The notes below the pieces were generated by a model. It was not told the origin of the DNA, searched no databases, and saw nothing but the letters and a program-made list of their open reading frames with translations. A stretch of 64,000 nucleotides of DNA from Patescibacteria group bacterium (GTDB lineage: Bacteria > Patescibacteriota > Patescibacteriia > UBA10025 > JAHIVO01): the NCBI GenBank assembly GCA_041660605.1, contig JBAZWB010000001.1, positions 137,295 to 201,294 on the forward strand, written 5' to 3'. Below, piece after piece: positions 26,727 through 61,185 of the stretch (its first letter is position 1; the number at the start of each line of letters is the position of its first letter). The position numbers and the translations under genes are program-made.

Positions 26727-29045
26727 ATGACGCAAATTGTCGGTTTCGAGTTTGAGGAAGTAGTAGTAGTCGCGGAAAGCCCACACGATATTTTTTCTCC
26801 CCAGCTGCGCAAAGCCGGCATCAAATACAAAAGATGTTCGGAACGCGAGGCGCGGGAGTTAATACTCGGAGATTCTGCGCTTATCATTGTCGTGAATTTA
26901 GGCGCTGAAAAAGTAGGCGAGCGGTTAAGAGCTCTATTTCCCCGAGCGCAGGTAGTTGTCTGTACCGGCGGCGAGAAGGTTTTTGATCCGCGGGTAGTCG
27001 TAGTGCACGGGAAAGGCGAGCATGACCTGCACCGCTTTTCCGACTGGGGAGGCTTTATCAGGCTTATTGGCCAACGGTTAAAGCCGCTGCCCAGGATTTT
27101 CACGCCGGTTCCCGGAGGGCACGACCTGTTTACTTATCTTCAGCCGGAGGAAGATGACTATGCGTACTGTCCGCAAGGGCTCAGCGACGCTTCCGGCACT
27201 ATGCTGAATATGTCCATAGTTTATCTGCGCTGGTACCGGCAGTGGCTGGAGGATGTCAGCAAAATTTCTTTTGATTGCCACTTCAGTTTTTCCGGCAAGA
27301 AAAGAAAAGTCAGGCGCGTGACGGTGCTGGTGGATGAAGTGACATTTATTCATCTTGGGCTGCCGATTTTCCACGAGGAAGACCGGGTGACATTCTTTGA
27401 CTCTGGCGGCAACGAGCACCGGGCTATTGTTGAGCGCATCGGCGATGAAGAAATGAAACTGTATTTTCCGGAAGAGTTGGACCGTTTTGTCGCGGAAGAT
27501 CTGGTTTTTTTCCAGAGAGATGTGGACAACGGCCTGATTGAGGCGCAACTGCAGCTTTGCGAGAATTTTACCACGGGCATGATTGCCAATTATTCCCTTC
27601 CCTGGCTAGTGGCTACCGGCCAGTACAGAAATCAGCAGGCTGACCCGCAAGATAGAGTTTGCTTGCCTGAACGTGAATGGCGCAGGCTGTCCCAGGACCG
27701 TTCGCAGTGTTTGGCCCTGGTTGACATGGTTGGGACGGCTAATTTGGTTTTTACCAATGGACCAGCCGGTACGGGCAAGACTTTCGTTATCTCGCAAGCC
27801 ATACCCCAAAATATCAGTCGCAGGAAAGTCACGCTAGTGCTATCCCATTCCAACAGGGGACTGGATAATATGATAGCCGCCATTGCCAAGCGGTTTACTG
27901 ATCATCGTCTTATTTATCGCCTGGGCAATAGCCAGGATAGCGTGGCTCCAGAGGCACTGCCTTTTCACCGGAGCCAGCGCTTCCGCGGTCCTGACGATAG
28001 GCCGTATCCAGAGGCACGGCAGGCTATGGAGGAGACTCGTAACATTTTGGAGCAATTAGATTTTGGCGACGGCATTGTCATTGGGTGCACCTTGACCTCG
28101 TTCTGGCTGGATAAGACGATGCTAGCTTTGCAGAAGAGCGGGATCCGGTTCCAGGTCGCTTATGTGGACGAAGCTTCGCGCTGCTATTTCTTTGAGCTGC
28201 TGCCTATCCTGCGCGCGGTGGCGGAAAAAGTCATTTTTGTCCTTGATCCCGAACAGCTGGGCAATATCGGCTTGTCTCCCCAGGCTAAGGATCACTTGGT
28301 GCAAAAAGGTTTTGAACCCGGGCAAATTGACGAATTCTTGGCAGGCTGGCCGGCCAGTGTCATTAAGAAGCGCCTGCTTAATTCCAGGATGCTGACAGTC
28401 AACAGGCGTTCCTTGCCTGTGATTTGCCGGCTGGTTAGTGAGGTTTTTTACGACGGTGAGCTTGAATCCGGACGTTTTGATCCGAATAATTCCGGGCAGG
28501 TTATTTTCTACGATACGGCCGCCGCGCAGGATAAGGGCCAGGAACGGCATCACAAATCTTTCAAGAATAGGCGTGAGGCTAATATAGCCGTTAGCTATGT
28601 TGTTAAACGCCTGGCTGCCGGCACAGCGCCAGATCAGATTGGGATTATTACTCCTTACCGGGGACAGATCGGCCTGATCCGGGGCAAGCTACGGCAAGAA
28701 TTGCTTTTTAACGACAAGCTGAAAGCGGTTCGCCAGCGGTATAACATTAACGCTGAAACTATTGATGCCATAGCCACTGCCATGGTGGATACGGTGGATG
28801 CTTTCCAGGGATCAGAGCGGACAGAGATAATCCTAAGCTTCGTCCGCTCAAATGACGAAGGCGACGTGGGTTTCAACCGCTTCGTCAACCGTTTATTGGT
28901 GGCGTTCTCGCGAGCCCGCAACCGCCTGGTGATAATCGGGGATACGCAGACTTTCCTGGCTTCGGAATTTCCAGAAGTGGTCAGGATATTCAAGCAGGTA
29001 ATTGAGTACGTGAAAAAGTATGGTACATACGTGGAGGTAAAATAA
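26727..29045 (+). CDS. Superfamily-1 helicase, Upf1/DNA2-like (AAA_11/AAA_12-type), with an unrecognised N-terminal region of about 330 aa
   Basis: Walker A FTNGPAGTGKTF, Walker B-like VDEASRC, C-terminal VDAFQGSER...NRLLVAFSRARNRLVIIGD; GC-richer than surroundings. Confidence 0.75.
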   Translation: MTQIVGFEFEEVVVVAESPHDIFSPQLRKAGIKYKRCSEREARELILGDSALIIVVNLGAEKVGERLRALFPRAQVVVCTGGEKVFDPRVVVVHGKGEHDLHRFSDWGGFIRLIGQRLKPLPRIFTPVPGGHDLFTYLQPEEDDYAYCPQGLSDASGTMLNMSIVYLRWYRQWLEDVSKISFDCHFSFSGKKRKVRRVTVLVDEVTFIHLGLPIFHEEDRVTFFDSGGNEHRAIVERIGDEEMKLYFPEELDRFVAEDLVFFQRDVDNGLIEAQLQLCENFTTGMIANYSLPWLVATGQYRNQQADPQDRVCLPEREWRRLSQDRSQCLALVDMVGTANLVFTNGPAGTGKTFVISQAIPQNISRRKVTLVLSHSNRGLDNMIAAIAKRFTDHRLIYRLGNSQDSVAPEALPFHRSQRFRGPDDRPYPEARQAMEETRNILEQLDFGDGIVIGCTLTSFWLDKTMLALQKSGIRFQVAYVDEASRCYFFELLPILRAVAEKVIFVLDPEQLGNIGLSPQAKDHLVQKGFEPGQIDEFLAGWPASVIKKRLLNSRMLTVNRRSLPVICRLVSEVFYDGELESGRFDPNNSGQVIFYDTAAAQDKGQERHHKSFKNRREANIAVSYVVKRLAAGTAPDQIGIITPYRGQIGLIRGKLRQELLFNDKLKAVRQRYNINAETIDAIATAMVDTVDAFQGSERTEIILSFVRSNDEGDVGFNRFVNRLLVAFSRARNRLVIIGDTQTFLASEFPEVVRIFKQVIEYVKKYGTYVEVK

Positions 29046-29568
29046 GTAAAAAAATAGGGTGGCTGTGGCAAACAGTCACCCTTTAGTTTTTTGGTCAGGT
29101 CCAAGCTTTATTAAATGCCTTGCAAGTTGCATATAATATTTTTGCCTATACCCCTTCGAATGCCATCAGTGAGGTAAGGAAGCCAGTTAACGTAAGCGTT
29201 AACCTAGTAAAAGGACCGGACCCCTCTTCGAACTCCACCGTGGGTCTTCGCCGTAGTCAACTGCTCATCGCCGTCATGACATATATGATAAGAAGACCAT
29301 TGGCCGTGCAACCACCTACGAATTGCACTGACCAGCTGCCTGCTCCCAGAGAGATTTTCTCTCTTGAACAGGGGCGGAATTGAAGAGGAAATGAACCCTG
29401 CTGGGACTATCCCAAAAGCGAACCTTTGAGAAAGTAGCATTAGAGAACCTCCTCCCTATTCCAGAAATGTAACCGTCCGTACACTAGGCACTGCGACTGT
29501 TACGTGCATATCTTAGCAGAATAAATAATACTGTCAAGGGATTTTTAATGAATTTGAACTCACGCGAT

Positions 29569-29925
29569 TGTCTCCTCGACCGATCCCGTCATCCGTCAGG
29601 GGAGTGGCGGGAACCTCCGTTAAACATAACTAACTTTGTTAATCTCCAAGTCGAGATTTCTCCATTCGTCCTCGTTCCACTCGGGCTCAGTCGAAATGAC
29701 ATGCGTTTTTTGACGACAAACAACACTTGATAAAACCACCCACGTCTGTCATGTCGACCGAGTTACGCGTAGCGTGATGAGCGGAGACATCTCGGTTAAA
29801 CACCACCTCAGCCAGCCCTAACCGAGATTTCTCCATTCAATCTGCCCCGAGCGTAGCCTCTGAGTTTATCGAAGGGGCGTAGTCGAAGGGCTCGAGGTGA
29901 CAAGCGTGGCGGATAAAAAGAGGCG
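29569..29925. repeat. Third large locus of the modular repeat family
   Basis: Contains tgtcNcctcgaccgatcccgtcatcc, aactaacNttgNtaatct..cgagatttctcc, tcagtcgaaatgaca and ggtgacaagcgtggcggataaaaag modules. Confidence 0.8.
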
Positions 29926-30145
29926 GCAATCGTATAAGTTCCATTGGCATGAACCCCCCTTGTTTTATAATCAAAGGGTGGTATGATATACTGATTTTAG
30001 GCATTTTTTAACAAAAAGATGCAGAGGTGAGTTTAACTACGTTTTTTAAGAAGCTGCATCTAAAGTGCAATCAAAGCGGAGAGGTCGCCCCGCCTCCGTA
30101 AAAACTCCGGCGGGGCAGGCATAGTGTAATATATTTCATCAGAAT

Positions 30146-30213
30146 GGAGGGATCGCATAGTTGGTCTAGTGCGCACGCCCCGAAGAATACTCGCTTCGCT
30201 CGTATCTACGGGG
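30146..30213 (+). pseudogene. Partial duplicate of the tRNA-Ser 5' end (29 nt, 30146-30174, 2 mismatches) fused to a CCCCG...CGCTTCGCTC...CGGGG hairpin element (30175-30213)
   Basis: ggagggatcgcatagttggtctagtgcgc versus ggaagggtcgcatagttggtctagtgcgc of the intact tRNA 90 nt downstream. Confidence 0.7.
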
Positions 30214-30267
30214 TAAACTTGGAAAGTAGTTTTTAAAAAAGCAGATATTATTTATTGGGCTCGGAGC

Positions 30268-30356
30268 GGAAGGGTCGCATAGTTGGTCTAGTGCGCTTGC
30301 TTGGAAAGCAAGTAAAGGCCAAAAGCCTTTCGCGAGTTCGAATCTCGCCCCTTCCG
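30268..30356 (+). tRNA. tRNA-Ser (anticodon GGA), type II, CCA not encoded
   Basis: Manual fold: acceptor GGAAGGG/CCCTTCC, D-arm GCAT..GTGC, anticodon stem CTTGC/GCAAG with loop TTGGAAA, variable arm AAAGGC-caaaa-GCCTTT, T-arm GCGAG-TTCGAAT-CTCGC. Confidence 0.8.
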
Positions 30357-30384
30357 CTCCGGATCTTATTAGATAGTATAGTTG

Positions 30385-30480
30385 GTTTTAAGTTCGCCAC
30401 GTCATCCTGTCATCCGACAGGACATATCCGACGTGGCGCCCCGAGTTTATCTTGGGGCGAATCTTTACCCCGCTGAATAG
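30385..30480. repeat. Nested hairpins (GCCACGTC..CCTGTC-atccga-GACAGG..GACGTGGC; CCCCGCT-gaat-AGCGGGG) and a terminal 17-nt segment that is the inverted repeat of 30137-30153
   Basis: tccctccgttctgatga (30464-30480) is the reverse complement of tcatcagaatggaggga (30137-30153) with 1 mismatch. Confidence 0.55.
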
Positions 30481-30889
30481 CGGGGCCTTTCCCTCCGTTC
30501 TGATGAAGTAAACCGCAGGTTTGAATCTTACAACAATAATTTGATTTATGCGAAATTAAATCATTTTAATCATTATAGCCGCAATGATTTTAGAAGCTTT
30601 AGTGTTAACCGTGATTATATTTTCAGACACCTCTTACGTGATCCAAATTATTGAATCAAAAGAAGAATACAAAGAACTCTCAATTCCAAACAGTGGTTAT
30701 CTTTAAGAATAGCCGGCAAGTTTTAGTTAAAAAAATATTTTTTTCTAATTTTGACACTAATCTTATAAAAAACTATAATTAAAGCACGTAATCCTTAATA
30801 AAATAGCGGATCAGAGCAAAACCGATATTGCATTATAATATGACATGAAAAGCGCTGAAAAAAAGTTACAAAATATTTAATCAACAAAT

Positions 30890-32905
30890 ATGAATGAGAA
30901 TTTTAAGGCGATAGAGGACTGGATAGCGCAAGCCCGCACTGCCGGTCTTTCTGACAATCAAATTTCAGATCAGCTTCGCAACAGCGGCTGGCAGGAAAGC
31001 CAAATTGCACAATTTATCAAGAATGAAGTTTCCGGAGTTTCTCACCCGGGCACACCCGCCCGAGATTACACTTTCCCAGTGAAGGGTATGAAAAATGTCG
31101 GCACTTCTGCGACGGAACTAAGGCAAAAGCCCTGGCTTTTACGGCACACCGCGTTATTATTCGGGGTGCTTGGGGGCATTCTCATCATTGGCGGTACTGC
31201 CTTTGCCGCGGTACAAGGATATATTCAAATTCCATTTATTTCTAATAGCAATAAACTGCTGACCCAGGCAATAAAACGCCTGGAAACCGTGGAAAGCGGC
31301 GAATTCGGCATTGTTTTCAGCATTGCTACTGAACCGCGCACTCCAGATGCAGTTCCATGGCCAAAAAATTCGAATATAGATGAGGGTATGGATGATTTTT
31401 CCCTAGATTTTACTGATATGATCCCGGCCGATGTCGCGCTTGAAGGCGTCATCACCACATTTATGAATACAGATTCCGCTGATTTGCAGAAACTCCGCGG
31501 CATTCTTACAGCAAAGGGCTCTTACCGCAGCTCAGGTACGACAATGAGCATGGACTTAGAGGCAAGGATCGTTGATGGACTGGGCTACCTTCTCGTGCGG
31601 CAATTTCCCGCCCTTCCTTTTGTGGATACCAGTCCATTCGTTGGAAAGTGGATATCACTGAATACAAAGGGGGATTCAACTGCGGATGATTTTCTTAGCG
31701 CCTATACGCCTGATAATGTAAATGTGTCAGAGGAATCAAAAAAGGTAAAAATTGAGGCAGCAGCTATTTTCCGGCTAGCGCTCTCCACGAAGGCTCTCTC
31801 TGCCGCAAACAGCGGTAGCGAGAAGCTGGACGGGCACGCTACGAAAAAAATTACCCTGACGATTAACCCTGAAAAAATTCCTGCGTTCCTGGCGGCTTAC
31901 CGTGATGATGCTGACAAGCGAGGCGTCTCCACGGCGTATGTCGATGAAACCCTGCAAGAATTAAAAGATCCGAAATACCTCGAACTTATCCGGGCAATGG
32001 CGAGCAACCTGCGCATTACAGTCTGGATCGACAGTGCGGATCATACTCCCCGAAAAGCCGAGTACTCGCAAATTATAGTACCAGATGAGACTGCCACGAA
32101 CTTCAAGGATAAACAGATCCATGCGACATTTGGATTCACGCTTGATCATGTCAATGAACAGCCTAACGTCGAAGCGCCAAAGGACGCTGTTACGCTTGAA
32201 ACAGTTCTTGAGCCGGTGTTAGCTGGACCTCGCGCTAAGTCCCGGAACGCACAGCGCAAATCCGATATTGGACAATTGAGGACCGCGCTTATTCTGTATT
32301 ATGATGATAATACCCACTACCCAAAAGATATAAATGAGGTGGCCGAAAAACCAAATCAGACTATCAGCCAGATGCCTGTCCCGCCATTGCCAAATGAGAT
32401 ATATGCGTACACTCCCACAGAAGACCTTTCGGGTTTTACTATCTGTGCAACTCTCGAGGATGTAGGGGAGGGCGCAGGGAAATACTGTTATGACCAGGCC
32501 GGAATTTTAACAGAAACTCCCGGAAACTCATTGGCTGGCCCGACGGATTTATTTTCTGAGCCAGGGCAAAGAAATGAAAAACGATTAGCAGACCTAAAAA
32601 AACTTCGGGAAGGGGTTTTGCTTTTCTATGATTATGAAAATCAAATGCCAAAATCATATACGGATCTGCTGAGGCATACCCCGCCTGTTATTGAGGGCGT
32701 CGCGCCGCCAGTACAAGGTGAAATGTATAAATACACCCTGTTAGATGGCGTAAAACGGGACTTCAGCGTATGCGCGGATTTTGAAAACTCAGTAGAATAT
32801 GAAGCTGGTCAGTATTGCTTTGAAACCGCAAAACCGAATGCCCTTATCCAAAAAGGCGTAAATGGCGGCATTGACATTGAAATTGTGGGTGATTATAACA
32901 GCTAG
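30890..32905 (+). CDS. Membrane-anchored protein (671 aa) with two tandem pseudopilin/type-IV-pilin head-like motifs in the C-terminal half
   Basis: TM segment around aa 88-110; SRNAQRKSDIGQLRTALILYYDDNTHYP and QRNEKRLADLKKLREGVLLFYDYENQMP resemble the region just after the N-terminal helix of Parcubacteria-type pilins (recalled consensus ARDARR.ADLKQIQTALELYYDDNGSYP). Confidence 0.6.
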   Translation: MNENFKAIEDWIAQARTAGLSDNQISDQLRNSGWQESQIAQFIKNEVSGVSHPGTPARDYTFPVKGMKNVGTSATELRQKPWLLRHTALLFGVLGGILIIGGTAFAAVQGYIQIPFISNSNKLLTQAIKRLETVESGEFGIVFSIATEPRTPDAVPWPKNSNIDEGMDDFSLDFTDMIPADVALEGVITTFMNTDSADLQKLRGILTAKGSYRSSGTTMSMDLEARIVDGLGYLLVRQFPALPFVDTSPFVGKWISLNTKGDSTADDFLSAYTPDNVNVSEESKKVKIEAAAIFRLALSTKALSAANSGSEKLDGHATKKITLTINPEKIPAFLAAYRDDADKRGVSTAYVDETLQELKDPKYLELIRAMASNLRITVWIDSADHTPRKAEYSQIIVPDETATNFKDKQIHATFGFTLDHVNEQPNVEAPKDAVTLETVLEPVLAGPRAKSRNAQRKSDIGQLRTALILYYDDNTHYPKDINEVAEKPNQTISQMPVPPLPNEIYAYTPTEDLSGFTICATLEDVGEGAGKYCYDQAGILTETPGNSLAGPTDLFSEPGQRNEKRLADLKKLREGVLLFYDYENQMPKSYTDLLRHTPPVIEGVAPPVQGEMYKYTLLDGVKRDFSVCADFENSVEYEAGQYCFETAKPNALIQKGVNGGIDIEIVGDYNS

Positions 32906-56664: not shown

Positions 56665-57576
56665 ATGAAAAAATCGTGCCCGTCATCAGTTAAATATTTT
56701 CGTATACTTTACGTGTTTGTCCCGCTATTAGTATTGATAGCGGGATATTCATTTGCCGAAGCGCAAGTGTCGCGTCAGGTTACGGTCACGGCCACAGTGC
56801 CGGAAAAACCGCCCATAGAAGAGCCGGATACTATTGTAATTTTCCGCGGCATCGCTTACCCCTCATCCACGGTCACTATTAATCAGGACGGTTCGGCTAT
56901 TTCTATTATAACTACCAATACCCAGGCGCAATTTGACGTTTCAGCCAAGGTGGATCCGGGCACTTACACTTTCACCATTATCGGCGTGGATACTGACGGG
57001 GTTGAGGGCAAGGTTTCCAATTTTACTTTGATGCTTTCAGAAGGGACGACTACCACCATCAGCGGGATATTTCTAGGACCGACTATTTCCATTGACGATA
57101 CCGTCATCGGGCCCGGAGAAACCGCCACCCTGGCCGGCACTACGGTGCCTGACAGCGAGGTTAATGTTACCGTCAGCTCGATTGGTACGGCCGCCGCCGC
57201 CGGCGATCCCCAGATTGCCGTGCATATCGCCAGTGCTGATTCAAACGGCCGCTGGCTGCAGCTTTTAAATGCCGACGAAATGGAAGCGGGAGATTATGAA
57301 GCAAAGGCGCAGTCAACAGAACCGCAGAATCATGCGGTTTCTGAATTCAGTAAAATCGTCGGTTTCCAGGTACAGGGGCAGACAGAGCCTGACCAATGCG
57401 CCGGCGCCTTGCCGGGCGATATCAACTGCGATACTTTTGTCAATCTGGTGGATTTCAGTATTTTGCTTTTTTATTGGGACAGCTCCAGCCCGGCTAATCC
57501 GCGGGCCGACATAAATACCGACGGGGTCGTTAATATTATTGATTTTAGCATTATGCTTTTTTACTGGACTGGATAA
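56665..57576 (+). CDS. Secreted Ig-like-domain protein with a C-terminal dockerin (two Ca-binding-loop-like repeats)
   Basis: GDINCDTFVNLVDFSILLFYW and ADINTDGVVNIIDFSIMLFYW form a dockerin type I-like duplicated segment. Confidence 0.7.
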   Translation: MKKSCPSSVKYFRILYVFVPLLVLIAGYSFAEAQVSRQVTVTATVPEKPPIEEPDTIVIFRGIAYPSSTVTINQDGSAISIITTNTQAQFDVSAKVDPGTYTFTIIGVDTDGVEGKVSNFTLMLSEGTTTTISGIFLGPTISIDDTVIGPGETATLAGTTVPDSEVNVTVSSIGTAAAAGDPQIAVHIASADSNGRWLQLLNADEMEAGDYEAKAQSTEPQNHAVSEFSKIVGFQVQGQTEPDQCAGALPGDINCDTFVNLVDFSILLFYWDSSSPANPRADINTDGVVNIIDFSIMLFYWTG

Positions 57577-57580
57577 ATAT

Positions 57581-58711
57581 ATGACCAAAAAAAATATTAA
57601 AATTCTGATTTTTTCCTTAATCTTCATCGGCGCTTTTTTATTGGCCGGACGGGTCAGCGCGGCAACTCTTTCCATCCAGCCGTCGCAGGATGAATACGCC
57701 ATCGGAGAAACATTCATTGTCGAAGTGCATTTAAAAGGAGAAGGGGAAATTGTCAATGCGGTGAAAGCGACCATAACGTATCCCAGTGATTTATTGGAGG
57801 TGACGGAATTATCAAAAGGGGGTTCGTTTTTATCGCTTTGGGCGCAAGAGCCAGCCAATGAATCAAGCGGCGGAGTTATCAGTCTGGCTGGCGGGATACC
57901 GAACGGCAGTTATGTGGTAGATGGCAGAGTGCTGGCTATCACTTTCCGCACCATTGCTCCGGGCGGAGCGGAAATCGCTTTTGACCAGAACCAGACGGGC
58001 GTTTATCTGAATGACGGCCATGGTACGCCGGCAAATTTAACTCTGAAATCAGGCATCTTCAACATTGCCGATCGCACTAACGTGAAAATAACTTCACCGA
58101 CCCATCCTGACGAAGAGGCCTGGTACCAGAATAAAACATTTACGGTAAATTGGAGCCCGAAAGAAGGGGCGAAGTACAGCTACTTACTGACCAATGATCC
58201 TGATAAAGCCCCGGATGAAGTGCAGGAATTCGCCGAGGGCGTAGTAACATTCAAGGATTTGCCGGACGGAATTTCATATTTTATTTTAAATGAGCAACTC
58301 CCGGGAAAATCGTGGCAGATCGTGGGCAAACGGCGGGCGATGGTGGATACTGTCCTGCCCTCGCCGATTGAAACGATTGTCAGCCGGGACAGGACATTGT
58401 ATGATGGGAAATATTTCTTGATTTTTTCTGCCGTGGACAGGACTTCCGGCGTGGATCATTATGACATTATTGAAGATGGAAAGAAATCCAGCCATGCCGT
58501 TTCCCCCTACATTTTATCAGATCAAACAAGGCAGGAAATGATAGAGATTCGCGCTTTTGATAAAGCGGGTAACGTCAGAACCGCGGTTTTGGGGGACAAG
58601 AGGGGGAGCCTAGAGGAAGAGAGGGGTTTCACCATAGCCCTGCTGATGTTTATCGGCGCCTTAATTCTCTTGCTGGTTTTTGTTCTGGTTAGGACCAGGT
58701 CAAAAAAATAA
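57581..58711 (+). CDS. Cohesin-domain surface protein with C-terminal TM anchor (start moved to MTKKNIKIL)
   Basis: N-terminal ATLSIQPSQDEYAIGETFIVEVHLKGEGEIVNAVKATITYPSDLLEVTELSKGGSF is cohesin-like; C-terminal hydrophobic segment plus RTRSKK. Confidence 0.65.
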   Translation: MTKKNIKILIFSLIFIGAFLLAGRVSAATLSIQPSQDEYAIGETFIVEVHLKGEGEIVNAVKATITYPSDLLEVTELSKGGSFLSLWAQEPANESSGGVISLAGGIPNGSYVVDGRVLAITFRTIAPGGAEIAFDQNQTGVYLNDGHGTPANLTLKSGIFNIADRTNVKITSPTHPDEEAWYQNKTFTVNWSPKEGAKYSYLLTNDPDKAPDEVQEFAEGVVTFKDLPDGISYFILNEQLPGKSWQIVGKRRAMVDTVLPSPIETIVSRDRTLYDGKYFLIFSAVDRTSGVDHYDIIEDGKKSSHAVSPYILSDQTRQEMIEIRAFDKAGNVRTAVLGDKRGSLEEERGFTIALLMFIGALILLLVFVLVRTRSKK

Positions 58712-58722
58712 CAGACCAGATT

Positions 58723-61185
58723 ATGAGGAGGTTAATATTAATATTTTTTTTTGCAGCGGCCTTAGTTTTATTTTTGCCTGATTCCGCCTCGGCCGCCTCT
58801 TTATATCTAAGCCCGGCGAGCGCCAGCCATACGGTCGGCGACAGTTTTAACGTTACCGTCGGGGTAAATACCGCCAATGCCGCCATTAATTCCGCCATGG
58901 CGACAGTCTCTTTTACCAATGATTTGCTGGAAGTAACGTCGGTTTCGCAAACGGGAATTTTCAGCCTCTGGCCGGTAACACCGTCGTATTCCAATGGCAG
59001 CGGGACGGTCAGTTTTGCCGGCGGCCTGCCTAATCCCGGTTATAACGGATCTTCGGGAACCATTATATCCATAAGCTTCAAAGCAAAAGCAGTAGGCACG
59101 GCCAGGGCCAGCATCGGTTCGGCCAGTGTCCTGGCTAATGACGGATTTGGTACAAACGTCCTCACTTCTTCCGGCAGCGGTACGTATACGATAACCGCAG
59201 CCGCACAGCCAAAACCCGAGCCCGAGCCGGAACCGCAGCCTGAGCTTAAATTCCCGGATGTCCCGAAAATAACTTCATCAACGCATCCTGAGCAGGTATT
59301 TTGGTATTCTAATAATAATCCGTCATTTACCTGGAATAAGCAGGAGGGGGTGGTCGGCTTCAGTTATGCTTTTGATGATAGCTCAGGCACTGTACCCGAT
59401 AAAAATCGCGATTCAACATCTAATTCCATCAGTTATACCAGCACCGGCGATGGTGTCTGGTATTTTCACGTGCGCGCCCAAAATGCCGATGGCTGGGGAG
59501 ACACCGGGCATTATAAAGTGCAGATAGACACCGCCCCACCGCGGGCTTTTGCCATTGAGCTCTTGGACGGCAAGCGCACCACCGTGACCTCGCCCCGCCT
59601 GTCATTTTCCACTACAGATGATAAGTCAGGAGTGCACCATTACAGTTTATCAATAAATAGCCAGGCGCCAATCAGCATTGATGTCGGCAAGACCACGCCT
59701 TATACTCTGGCAAATCTGGCCGTTGGCGATTATAAAGTGGTCGCTACAGCTTATGACAACGCCAGCAACCAGACACAAGCGACTAATAATTTTACGATTT
59801 ATAAGCCCGAGGAAAAAACTCCGGAGGAGAAGAAAGAAGAAAAGGAAAAGTCCGAGGAAGTTCTGCCGCCGGTCGCAAAAACGCTAAAGAAAATTCAGGA
59901 GGCATTGCCGGCGCCTATCAGAAAAATTACGGAGCAGATCGGCAAAACTGTCCAGCAAATAAAAGAAAATGAAACAGTCAGTAAGACGGTGGACCGGGTC
60001 GTGCAGCCGGTAGTGGCCACTTCCGCGGTGGTAGCTGTCACCGGCCTGGCGGCAACAGCCGGCTCTACCCAGTTTTTCAATTTATTGTATTTATTCTTCC
60101 GTTTCGGCTATTTCTGGCTGGTGCCGATATCTTTCGGCAAAAAAAGGAAAGCCTGGGGCACTGTCTTCGACAGCCTGACCGGCCGGCCGATTTCCCGGGC
60201 AGTGGTGAGAATTTTTTCGCGCGAATTCAATAAGCTGCGTGAAAGCCAGATAACCGACAAGGAAGGCCGTTTCGGCTTTATCGTCGATGAGGGCGTGTAT
60301 TATCTGACCGTCACCCGCCCCGGCTATGTCTTCCCTTCGCACATATTGGAGACCGCGGCCATCAGCCAGTACATTAATATTTATCGGGGCAATACCATTA
60401 GTATTGATGATGGCAATAAGGGCACCTTGGCTTTGAATATCCCCGTTGATCCGAATATGAGGGAAATCAGCAGTGGCCGCGTAAATTGGCTGAAGATAAT
60501 CAGCTTTATTGGAAATCTGCTGGAAAAAATGAACACTCCGCTGTTGATTGGCGGTACGATATTAAGCTGGTTAGCCCTGATTATTGAGCCAAAATTGATA
60601 AATTACCTGCTACTGGGACTGTACGCCGCACTTTTGTTTTTAAGGTACATAACTGCCCGCCATTTAGGCCGTTCTTGGGGCGTGGTCAAGGATAAATATA
60701 CCGGTGCGCCGATCGAACAGGCGGTGGTCCGCATCTACAACGTGAATACCGGCAATCTCTTATGGACGCGCGTGACCAATCAGCAGGGCCAGTTCAATGG
60801 CTTGCTGTCGCCTGGCAGATATTATCTGGTAATAATAAAATACGGCTATCATATGTTCCAGAGCAAACCGGTGAATGTCTCCAGGAAACGCGGTTACATC
60901 AGGTTCACGGCTGAATTAATTTCCAAGAAAGCGCAGCTGCCGCCGGTCAGCGGCAAGGGCGACCAGGATATACACCTGGAATCGATTTCCGTCCCAGGTG
61001 CATACAAGGATAATACGGCACCGCGGCCGGTGCGCGAGGAAAACGTTTTTCAGCCGCCGGTGCCGCGGCGTCCGTCAGCCTCAGGCAAAAATGTTTTTGA
61101 ACCCCCTAAGCCTATAAACGGACTGGGGCAGTCCGGGAATCAAACAGCAGCGCCGAAAAGCCGCCGTTCGGCAAAAAAGAAATAA
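58723..61185 (+). CDS. Large surface protein: cohesin-like domain, shared ITSxTHP domain, Pro/Glu linker, polytopic TM region and two carboxypeptidase-regulatory-like (CarboxypepD_reg) domains
   Basis: SLYLSPASASHTVGDSFNVTVGVNT...ATVSFTNDLLEVTSVSQTG is cohesin-like; GTVFDSLTGRPISRAVVRIF...DKEGRFGF and GVVKDKYTGAPIEQAVVRIYN...NQQGQFNG are CarboxypepD_reg-like. Confidence 0.65.
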   Translation: MRRLILIFFFAAALVLFLPDSASAASLYLSPASASHTVGDSFNVTVGVNTANAAINSAMATVSFTNDLLEVTSVSQTGIFSLWPVTPSYSNGSGTVSFAGGLPNPGYNGSSGTIISISFKAKAVGTARASIGSASVLANDGFGTNVLTSSGSGTYTITAAAQPKPEPEPEPQPELKFPDVPKITSSTHPEQVFWYSNNNPSFTWNKQEGVVGFSYAFDDSSGTVPDKNRDSTSNSISYTSTGDGVWYFHVRAQNADGWGDTGHYKVQIDTAPPRAFAIELLDGKRTTVTSPRLSFSTTDDKSGVHHYSLSINSQAPISIDVGKTTPYTLANLAVGDYKVVATAYDNASNQTQATNNFTIYKPEEKTPEEKKEEKEKSEEVLPPVAKTLKKIQEALPAPIRKITEQIGKTVQQIKENETVSKTVDRVVQPVVATSAVVAVTGLAATAGSTQFFNLLYLFFRFGYFWLVPISFGKKRKAWGTVFDSLTGRPISRAVVRIFSREFNKLRESQITDKEGRFGFIVDEGVYYLTVTRPGYVFPSHILETAAISQYINIYRGNTISIDDGNKGTLALNIPVDPNMREISSGRVNWLKIISFIGNLLEKMNTPLLIGGTILSWLALIIEPKLINYLLLGLYAALLFLRYITARHLGRSWGVVKDKYTGAPIEQAVVRIYNVNTGNLLWTRVTNQQGQFNGLLSPGRYYLVIIKYGYHMFQSKPVNVSRKRGYIRFTAELISKKAQLPPVSGKGDQDIHLESISVPGAYKDNTAPRPVREENVFQPPVPRRPSASGKNVFEPPKPINGLGQSGNQTAAPKSRRSAKKK

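What the first reader, a model, noticed from the sequence alone, without database searches (positions are those of the whole stretch)
30890..32905. Membrane protein carrying two tandem pilin-head-like motifs without a prepilin leader
SRNAQRKSDIGQLRTALILYYDDNTHYP (about nt 32222) and QRNEKRLADLKKLREGVLLFYDYENQMP (about nt 32570) both resemble the conserved stretch that follows the N-terminal helix in Parcubacteria-type type IV pilins and pseudopilins. Here they sit in the C-terminal half of a 671-aa protein anchored by an internal TM segment around aa 90-110. Pilin globular-head modules therefore appear to be reused in a non-pilin protein at the start of the surface locus.
Basis: partly seen in the sequence, partly recalled or inferred. 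Interest (0 to 1): 0.55.

Follow-up and report, generated by a model that had tools for sequence, protein, structure and literature searches.

The report
Leaderless pilin-head modules on membrane protein
A membrane-anchored surface protein of an ultrasmall (Patescibacteria/CPR) bacterium carries two genuine pilin "head" domains that lack the N-terminal leader and hydrophobic helix needed to build a pilus, and the same leaderless module is reused in many other membrane proteins.

Summary
ORF 30890-32905 (+) encodes a 671-aa protein identical to a Patescibacteria MAG "hypothetical protein". Its layout is:
- a 48-aa cytoplasmic helical domain;
- one TM segment (aa 86-108);
- an ectodomain (aa 112-432) with an LprG/LppX/LolA/RseB-like fold;
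- two tandem ~100-aa modules (aa 447-544 and 558-654), each with one conserved Cys pair.

The modules are homologous to each other (E=3e-14). Both match the alpha1C-plus-head part of bona fide prepilins (hhalign 99.5% and 95.9%). A broader module profile hits solved GspG/EpsG at E=2e-7. A confident AlphaFold model has type IV pilins as its only high-probability fold matches.

There is no class III signal peptide and no hydrophobic alpha1N, so these are not filament subunits. The leaderless module is widespread: most of the best 150 of 5,624 profile hits lack a leader. Carriers include polytopic membrane proteins, apparent lipoproteins and a Ser/Thr kinase.

In seven sequenced homologous loci the gene is paired with a polytopic partner that shares the N-domain and usually the module. 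That partner is missing from this window. The link to the downstream giant-protein locus is not conserved, and no pilus machinery lies nearby. Function is inferred only: a non-polymerising surface binding or docking module.

The parts
30751..30779 (+). Sigma-70-type promoter-like site (TTGACA-17-TATAAT, 12/12), about 110 nt upstream of the ATG
   Evidence: This is a consensus match only. It suggests the gene is its own transcription unit.
30890..32905 (+). Complete ORF, 671 aa. Type II (N-in/C-out) membrane protein. Identical to a Patescibacteria MAG hypothetical protein (WCV50_04510).
30890..31033 (+). N-terminal ~48-aa cytoplasmic three-helix domain (W-x3-AR-x-AGLSD-x-QI-x2-QL-x3-GW motif).
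   Evidence: No informative match in Pfam or the PDB.
31145..31213 (+). Single transmembrane signal-anchor, aa 86-108, preceded by basic residues. It has no Gly-1/Glu5 prepilin signature.
31223..32185 (+). Extracytoplasmic mid domain, aa 112-432, with an LprG/LppX/LolA/RseB-like fold. The low-confidence loop at aa ~150-182 is where relatives carry an inserted pilin-like module.
   Evidence: Model pLDDT ~80. Foldseek 3mh9_A LprG E=2.3e-7, prob 1.0, TM(target) 0.49, plus LppX, LprF, LolA and RseB. No sequence-level family match. Insertion site.
32228..32521 (+). Pilin-head module 1, aa 447-544: alpha1C helix, short helix and a 4-stranded sheet. Cys519/Cys533.
32561..32902 (+). Pilin-head module 2 (core aa 558-654, with extra C-terminal strands running to aa 671). 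Cys628/Cys643.

Best explanation
The gene encodes a signal-anchored (N-in/C-out) surface protein of a Patescibacteria bacterium. A 48-aa helical domain stays in the cytoplasm. One TM helix anchors the protein. Outside the membrane sit an LprG/LolA-like half-barrel and then two tandem pilin-head domains, each probably stabilised by a disulfide. The two modules are true homologues of the alpha1C-plus-globular-head part of T2SSG-type type IV pilins and pseudopilins that are common in CPR bacteria. [quoted passage not shown] They therefore cannot be processed by a prepilin peptidase or polymerise into a pilus core. Inferred, not shown: they act as monomeric, surface-exposed binding or docking domains, a pilin head recycled as a general extracytoplasmic module. 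The same leaderless module is attached to many other membrane proteins. In relatives, this family works with an adjacent polytopic membrane partner that carries the same cytoplasmic N-domain and usually the same module. Also inferred: the LprG/LolA-like domain handles a hydrophobic ligand at the membrane surface.
For: Shown:
- ORF, TM segment, motifs and Cys pairs.
- Internal duplication, E=3e-14.
- The module profile finds 5,624 proteins. Among the best 150 are 18 canonical prepilins in which the module starts at aa 33-44, right after alpha1N. Two of these pass NCBI's curated prepilin cutoff.
- hhalign to a prepilin-only profile gives 99.5% / E=1e-22 for module 1 and 95.9% / E=6e-9 for module 2. 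Both alignments begin after the hydrophobic segment.
- All 13 PDB profile hits are pilins or pseudopilins, with EpsG at 2.4e-7.
- The AF2 model has pLDDT 85, with a helix plus 4-5 strands in each module. Foldseek: 4d40 type IV pilin prob 1.00, TM 0.70; PilV 0.96; TTHA1221 0.85.
- Pfam census of 116 module carriers: T2SSG 40, N_methyl only 12.
- No leader motif anywhere in the window.
- The module is fused to a Ser/Thr kinase ectodomain in P0043 and to polytopic proteins and apparent lipoproteins.
- A partner gene is conserved in seven sequenced loci, and a likely eighth cannot be read.
- The mid-domain fold matches LprG at E=2e-7.
Against: No functional data exist. The LprG/LolA-like assignment rests on fold alone (TM about 0.5, no sequence-family hit), and no cavity or ligand could be examined. 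The disulfides are inferred from conserved Cys pairs only. Foldseek E-values for the two-module model are modest (best 5e-3). Pfam T2SSG and TIGR01710 are below their curated cutoffs on this protein itself. The polytopic partner is absent from this window, so the two-protein model may not apply to this genome. The best 150 hits are biased towards multi-module proteins, so the true share of leaderless carriers among the 5,624 hits is unknown.
Confidence: 0.75

Rival explanations
1. Envelope sensor or signalling protein. The ectodomain (an RseB/MucB-like fold plus pilin-head modules) senses an extracellular or envelope cue. The conserved cytoplasmic N-domain passes this on to partners that carry the same N-domain.
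For: RseB and MucB, which are periplasmic stress sensors, are among the fold matches. The same module forms the ectodomain of a bona fide Ser/Thr kinase, P0043. The N-domain is shared by two or three adjacent genes. PspC/LiaF-like envelope-stress genes lie next to the pair in L001 and L010.
Against: The 48-aa N-domain has no recognisable signalling or DNA-binding family. No sigma factor or response regulator is nearby. LprG and LppX score better than RseB.
Confidence: 0.2
2. Pilus-associated protein. The leaderless heads dock onto type IV pili or pseudopili, or onto the assembly platform, by head-to-head contacts. This would tether or regulate the filament.
For: The heads are clearly homologous to CPR pilins. 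Type IV pili are conserved and important in Patescibacteria (PMC11665869, PMC12206443).
Against: No pilin, prepilin peptidase, ATPase or platform gene lies in the window or in any of the related loci read. The main filament interface, alpha1N, is missing (PMC4471445).
Confidence: 0.15
3. Artefact: a chance resemblance, a misassembled chimera, or decayed pilin pseudogenes read through as one ORF.
For: Pfam and TIGRFAM matches on this protein alone are below threshold.
Against: The architecture is conserved at 29-56% identity in homologues from independent MAGs, a single-cell genome and metagenomes. The Cys pairs and core motifs are conserved. Profile and structure evidence is strong. An identical protein is on a 904-kb contig.
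Confidence: 0.02

Closest known systems
T2SSG-type type IV pilins/pseudopilins of Patescibacteria (e.g. P0071 and P0098, with a GFTLIE leader)
   Same: The head region is homologous: R-D/N-x2-R-x-S-D ... AL-x-LYY-x-D-x3-YP ... P-x-DP ... Y-x-Y ... C-A-x-LE ... C. The fold is the same alpha1C helix plus beta-meander.
   Different: [quoted passage not shown] The window protein has neither feature, and its heads lie at aa 447-654 of a 671-aa protein.
GspG/EpsG major pseudopilin of type II secretion (PDB 3gn9, 3fu1, 4lw9, 1t92)
   Same: Significant profile similarity over alpha1C, the YP motif and the P-x-DP-x-G-x-Y-x-Y strand, E=2.4e-7.
   Different: It is below the curated cutoffs of PF08334 and TIGR01710. 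It has no leader and no gsp operon, and it has a disulfide pair. Whether it has GspG's calcium site was not examined.
Clostridioides difficile PilJ, the 'dual pilin fold' minor pilin (PDB 4ixj; PMC4471445)
   Same: Two pilin folds in one polypeptide, probably from duplication or fusion. It appears in the Foldseek list, though weakly (rank 20, E=0.92, prob 0.08).
   Different: [quoted passage not shown] Here both folds are leaderless and C-terminal.
Modular pilins (Streptococcus sanguinis PilB/PilC; Caulobacter CpaL)
   Same: A pilin fold combined with unrelated functional domains in one protein (bioRxiv 10.1101/2021.01.27.428410, PMC9934059, PMC12607857).
   Different: In those proteins the pilin module is N-terminal, carries the leader or TM helix, and inserts the protein into the filament. 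The extra domain is grafted onto the pilin. Here the order is reversed and the pilin module is the grafted part.
Mycobacterial LprG/LppX/LprF lipid-carrier lipoproteins and the LolA/RseB superfamily
   Same: The predicted fold of aa 112-432. It is also located outside the cytoplasmic membrane.
   Different: There is no sequence-family match, it is anchored by a TM helix rather than a lipobox, and ligand binding is untested.

Membership tests
Type IV pilin / type IV filament subunit | [quoted passage not shown] | tested here: not met
   No PF07963 or TIGR02532 hit. No leader motif in this ORF or anywhere in the window. The N-terminus is a soluble 48-aa domain, and the TM segment lies at aa 86-108 without Gly-1/Glu5.
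Type IV pilin / type IV filament subunit | Hydrophobic alpha1N continuous with alpha1C (the filament assembly interface) | tested here: not met
   hhalign alignments to the prepilin profile start at template columns 35 (module 1) and 42 (module 2), after the hydrophobic segment. No hydrophobic stretch precedes either module.
Type IV pilin / type IV filament subunit | Globular head: alpha1C packed on a ~4-stranded antiparallel beta-meander | tested here: met
   The AF2 model (pLDDT 85) shows a helix plus 4-5 strands in each module. Foldseek: 4d40 prob 1.00 / TM 0.70; 5v23 prob 0.96; 4bhr prob 0.85.
Type IV pilin / type IV filament subunit | Sequence homology of the head to bona fide prepilins | tested here: met
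   (99.5% and 95.9% hhalign probability)
Type IV pilin / type IV filament subunit | Encoded with, or dependent on, a prepilin peptidase, assembly ATPase and platform protein | tested here: not met
   None is present in the 64-kb window or in the flanks of the homologues read. The rest of the genome could not be searched with these tools.
Type IV pilin / type IV filament subunit | C-terminal disulfide-bounded region (common in pilins but not universal) | tested here: inconclusive
   One Cys pair per module (519/533 and 628/643). The second Cys is invariant and the first is present in most modules. Bond formation was not demonstrated.
GspG major pseudopilin (PF08334 T2SSG / TIGR01710) | Score above the curated family cutoffs | tested here: not met
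   PF08334 scores 16.7 bits against a cutoff of 21, on module 1 only. TIGR01710 scores 15.6 against 88.85. Among module carriers, 40 of 116 match PF08334 at E<=1e-3.
GspG major pseudopilin (PF08334 T2SSG / TIGR01710) | Profile-level homology to solved GspG/EpsG heads | tested here: met
   3gn9 at 2.4e-7, 3fu1 at 3.5e-7, 4lw9 at 4.8e-7, 2kep at 1.5e-6
LolA/LprG/LppX/RseB-like superfamily (mid domain) | Unclosed beta-barrel/half-barrel fold | tested here: met
   Foldseek: 3mh9_A E=2.3e-7, prob 1.0, TM(target) 0.49. LppX, LprF, LolA and RseB also match. Model pLDDT is ~80 in this region.
LolA/LprG/LppX/RseB-like superfamily (mid domain) | Sequence-family membership (Pfam/NCBIfam models) | tested here: not met
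   The only hit is weak: SCO4651 lipoprotein, E=0.017, 14.8 bits against a cutoff of 65. A PDB profile search finds nothing relevant.
LolA/LprG/LppX/RseB-like superfamily (mid domain) | Hydrophobic cavity that binds lipid or lipoprotein acyl chains | not testable with these tools
   Model coordinates and ligand docking were not available.
Dual-pilin fold (PilJ type) | [quoted passage not shown] | tested here: not met
   Two folds are present, but the leader is absent.

The most novel reading that the evidence does not exclude
The conserved pair is a Patescibacteria-specific envelope system for capturing host-derived lipids or other hydrophobic molecules. One member is the signal-anchored LprG/LolA-like protein. 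The other is the polytopic GPDPase_memb/UPF0259-like partner. Both carry the same cytoplasmic N-domain and the same leaderless pilin-head module. In this reading the pilin heads act as docking modules, binding each other, the type IV pilus or the host surface. This would bear on the open question of how lipid-auxotrophic CPR bacteria obtain membrane lipids; PMC11665869 states that no uptake mechanism has been identified.
Probability: 0.1. Interest if true: 0.85.

Novelty: new variant of a known kind. Interest (0 to 1): 0.55.

Why it matters
[quoted passage not shown] A pilin head that has been separated from that helix and spread as a general extracytoplasmic module would be a new use of one of the most widespread prokaryotic folds. 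It turns up on signal-anchored proteins, polytopic proteins, apparent lipoproteins and a Ser/Thr kinase.

There is a practical consequence. Weak T2SSG hits can lead to such proteins being counted as type II secretion or pilin genes in CPR genomes, which would inflate pilus gene counts. Checking for the leader would separate subunits from modules.

The conserved pairing with a polytopic partner and an LprG/LolA-like domain also gives a concrete, testable candidate for envelope or lipid handling in organisms whose lipid acquisition is unexplained.

Tried and rejected
- phmmer of the whole protein against PDB sequences found nothing.
- Pfam and NCBIfam on the whole protein gave only sub-threshold T2SSG/GspG hits.
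- Word-index searches of the 5.8-billion-protein database with the module alignment and with the mid-domain alignment returned one protein each and were uninformative. The exhaustive HMMER search was the one that worked.
- A profile of the N-terminal domain hit only de novo designed helical proteins and the DotG repeat, so that domain remains unassigned.
- The mid-domain profile found nothing relevant in PDB sequences.
- The listing of cluster members gave no names or taxonomy for ten module carriers, so the taxonomic range of the leaderless module outside this family is unverified.
- P0064 (TPR), P0086 and P0093 (He_PIG) among the top 150 are spurious sums of weak partial matches.
- I considered and rejected a functional link to the downstream giant-protein/dockerin/cohesin genes. 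That link is absent in all other loci, and the gene has its own promoter.
- I considered and rejected the internal TM segment as a cryptic prepilin signal, because it has no Gly-1 or Glu5.
- Literature searches found no description of leaderless pilin-head modules in CPR.

Full report
**1. The observation**

The window has an uninterrupted ORF at 30890..32905 (+) of 671 aa. Both quoted motifs are present, at aa 450-477 (starting nt 32237) and aa 560-587 (starting nt 32567). A Kyte-Doolittle scan finds one hydrophobic segment at aa ~86-108. The protein has only four cysteines (519, 533, 628, 643), one pair in each C-terminal module.

The two modules are significantly similar to each other: BLASTP E=3e-14, 31% identity over 89 residues. 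A regular-expression scan of all six frames of the window finds no prepilin-type leader. HMMs of the module and of the N-terminal domain hit only this ORF.

**2. Are the modules pilin heads?**

On the protein alone the curated libraries give only sub-threshold hits:
- PF08334 T2SSG on module 1: E=0.0076, 16.7 bits against a cutoff of 21.
- TIGR01710 GspG: E=0.012-0.18.

I built a profile from 11 modules of the eight family members (A1) and ran it exhaustively against 1.84 billion representative proteins. It found 5,624 proteins at E<=1e-3 and 260 at E<=1e-10.

Among the best 150, 18 are short proteins (mostly 128-187 aa) with a GFTLIE-type leader in the first 15 residues. In these the module starts at aa 33-44, directly after the hydrophobic helix. 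Two that I checked pass NCBI's curated prepilin model TIGR02532 (33-34 bits against a cutoff of 16.3) and resemble GspG, ComGC and PilA.

For a non-circular test I used a profile made only from 17 such prepilins (A6):
- Module 1, as a single sequence: hhalign probability 99.5%, E=1.3e-22.
- Module 2 (a three-sequence alignment): probability 95.9%, E=5.6e-9.

Both alignments begin at template columns 35-42, after the hydrophobic alpha1N, and run through the conserved YP, P-x-DP and Y-x-Y elements.

A broader 53-sequence profile (A3) searched against all PDB sequences returned 13 hits. All are pilins or pseudopilins, led by EpsG/GspG at E=2.4e-7 to 1.5e-6.

An AlphaFold2 model of aa 432-671 built on that alignment is confident (mean pLDDT 85.1). 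Each module shows a ~27-residue helix, a short helix and a 4-5-stranded sheet. Foldseek against the PDB gives type IV pilins as the only high-probability matches:
- Shewanella pilin 4d40: prob 1.00, TM 0.70.
- Neisseria PilV 5v23: prob 0.96.
- Thermus TTHA1221 4bhr: prob 0.85.
- The dual-pilin PilJ (4ixj) also appears, but only at rank 20 with prob 0.08.

The modules are pilin heads.

**3. Why it is not a pilin**

[quoted passage not shown] Its ~21 hydrophobic residues form alpha1N, the main subunit interface in filaments (PMC4471445). Here the N-terminus is a soluble 48-aa helical domain. The only TM segment lies at aa 86-108 and has neither Gly-1 nor Glu5. Neither module is preceded by a hydrophobic stretch.

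The modules correspond to the alpha1C-plus-head part of a pilin, the part that is crystallised when alpha1N is removed. They cannot be substrates of a prepilin peptidase or core subunits of a filament.

**4. The rest of the protein**

A full-length model (8-sequence alignment, mean pLDDT 65) is confident for aa 120-430 (~80) and for module 1 (~85). Foldseek assigns the mid domain to the LprG/LppX/LprF/LolA/RseB fold class: 3mh9_A E=2.3e-7, prob 1.0, TM 0.49 normalised to the target.

No sequence family supports this assignment, so it is fold-level only. Basic residues precede the TM segment and disulfide-type Cys pairs follow it, so the topology is N-in/C-out. This topology is inferred.

**5. 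Family and context**

Full-length homologues are few (29-56% identity), and every one that carries a taxonomic label comes from Patescibacteria or Parcubacteria MAGs or a single-cell genome. Module number and position vary:
- The 536-aa members have one C-terminal module.
- P0006-P0008 and the proteins in L006-L009 have an extra module inserted at aa ~150-250. This corresponds to the low-confidence loop at aa 150-182 of the window protein.
- Some members end in bacterial TSP3 calcium-binding repeats.

The homologue is immediately followed or preceded on the same strand by a partner gene in seven sequenced loci: L001, L003/L009 (near-identical), L006, L007, L008 and L010. The partner encodes the same N-terminal domain (HMM E=1e-9 to 1e-23), 7-9 predicted TM segments, and usually a C-terminal pilin-like module. 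The polytopic core weakly resembles GPDPase_memb/UPF0259. L001 also has a third small gene encoding only the N-domain plus one TM segment. P0003 has a 430-aa gene 7 nt downstream that could not be read.

The window is the exception. No partner gene is present in the 64 kb. The next gene, after a 474-nt gap, is the 6,677-aa giant protein.

None of the other loci has a giant neighbour, and none has any type IV pilus gene. The window likewise has no prepilin peptidase, ATPase or platform gene. A perfect TTGACA-17-TATAAT site lies about 110 nt upstream of the ATG. The tie to the 'surface locus' is therefore positional only.

**6. The module is widely reused**

Among the best 150 profile hits, 134 lack a leader and 70 carry two to four modules. 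Carriers include:
- single-pass proteins;
- polytopic proteins with six or more TM segments;
- proteins with lipoprotein-like N-termini;
- proteins in which a plain TM anchor without Gly-1/Glu5 directly precedes the head (e.g. P0100);
- P0043, a Ser/Thr kinase (Pkinase E=1.5e-49) followed by three TM segments and three modules.

A Pfam census of 116 carriers gives T2SSG in 40, N_methyl in only 12, TSP3_bac in 9 and ComP_DUS in 6. Three top hits (TPR and He_PIG proteins) are spurious.

The ranking favours multi-module proteins, so these fractions should not be extrapolated to all 5,624 hits.

**7. Mechanism**

Shown: the domain identities and the absence of a leader and alpha1N. The N-in/C-out topology is inferred (section 4).

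Inferred: the heads act as monomeric, disulfide-stabilised surface domains for binding or docking. The range of proteins they are attached to, including a kinase ectodomain, fits a ligand- or partner-binding role better than a filament role. The shared N-domain and shared module in adjacent genes suggest that the two proteins assemble with each other. The LprG/LolA-like domain suggests handling of a hydrophobic ligand. A review notes that lipid-uptake mechanisms are unknown in Patescibacteria (PMC11665869), but this link is speculative (probability about 0.1).

Rivals are an envelope-sensor role (RseB-like fold, the kinase fusion, neighbouring PspC/LiaF-like genes) and a pilus-docking role. 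Neither is excluded.

**8. Comparison with known systems, and novelty**

The closest known systems are:
- CPR T2SSG-type pilins and GspG (homologous heads);
- PilJ (two pilin folds in one chain);
- modular pilins such as S. sanguinis PilB/PilC and Caulobacter CpaL (pilin module plus other domains).

All of these keep the N-terminal leader and helix and enter the filament (PMC4471445, PMC12607857, PMC9934059). Here the relation is reversed: the pilin head is the appended module.

Six literature searches found no description of this. The held library is incomplete, and weak T2SSG hits on such proteins already exist in databases.

I rate it a new variant of a known kind, of moderate interest (0.55). 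It is real, widespread and relevant to annotation, but without functional evidence.

Noticed in passing
L001:11615-13216, L003:8632-9981, L006:2082-3089, L007:8885-10246, L008:12827-14173, L009:8647-9996, L010:8049-9161: A conserved partner gene lies directly next to every homologue that could be read. It encodes the same ~45-aa cytoplasmic N-domain, 7-9 TM segments (weakly GPDPase_memb/UPF0259-like), and usually a C-terminal leaderless pilin-head module. L001:13223-13501 is a third gene with only the N-domain plus one TM segment. The window has no such partner.
   Followed up: partly
window 33379-53412 (+): The giant 6,677-aa ORF begins with a cytoplasmic HTH_17/MerR-type helix-turn-helix (aa 35-80, E=2.8e-7), followed by a hydrophobic segment and then thousands of residues of T/G/S/N-rich repeats. 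G+C rises to ~0.53 across it, against ~0.45 for the flanks. A DNA-binding-type domain at the start of a giant surface protein is unusual.
   Followed up: partly
window 56665-57576 and 57539-58711 (+): Adjacent genes encode a dockerin type I domain protein (E=6e-7, with Ig-like domains) and a weak cohesin-domain protein (E=6e-4). They are followed by an 820-aa CarboxypepD_reg/Big_13 protein (58723-61185). This may be a cohesin-dockerin surface assembly in a CPR genome.
   Followed up: no
P0043 (766 aa; representative library): A Ser/Thr protein kinase (Pkinase E=1.5e-49) with three TM segments and three extracytoplasmic pilin-head modules. The pilin head appears to take the place of a sensor ectodomain.
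   Followed up: partly
L001:8057-9503 and L010:4392-5823: PspC-domain and LiaI/LiaF-like (Toast_rack) membrane genes lie divergently upstream of the gene pair in two loci whose target proteins are only ~36% identical. This may be an envelope-stress context.
   Followed up: no
window 30268-30357 (+) and 30751-30779 (+): tRNA-Ser(GGA) lies ~530 nt upstream of the gene, and a perfect consensus sigma-70-type promoter (12/12) lies ~110 nt upstream of the ATG. The 1.8-kb stretch 29046-30889 otherwise has no convincing ORF.
   Followed up: no
window 26727-29045 (+): A 772-aa SF1 helicase (AAA_11/AAA_12, Upf1/DNA2-like) has a ~320-aa N-terminal region with no family match.
   Followed up: no
P0007, P0008, P0019, P0036 and others (9 of 116 module carriers): Bacterial TSP3 (thrombospondin type 3-like, calcium-binding) repeats often occur together with the leaderless pilin-head module. 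They are absent from the window protein.
   Followed up: no
P0100, P0077, P0079, P0122, P0125 (representative library): These are short pilin-like proteins with an N-terminal TM anchor directly before the head, but without the Gly-1/Glu5 prepilin signature. They may be intermediates between true prepilins and the leaderless modules.
   Followed up: no
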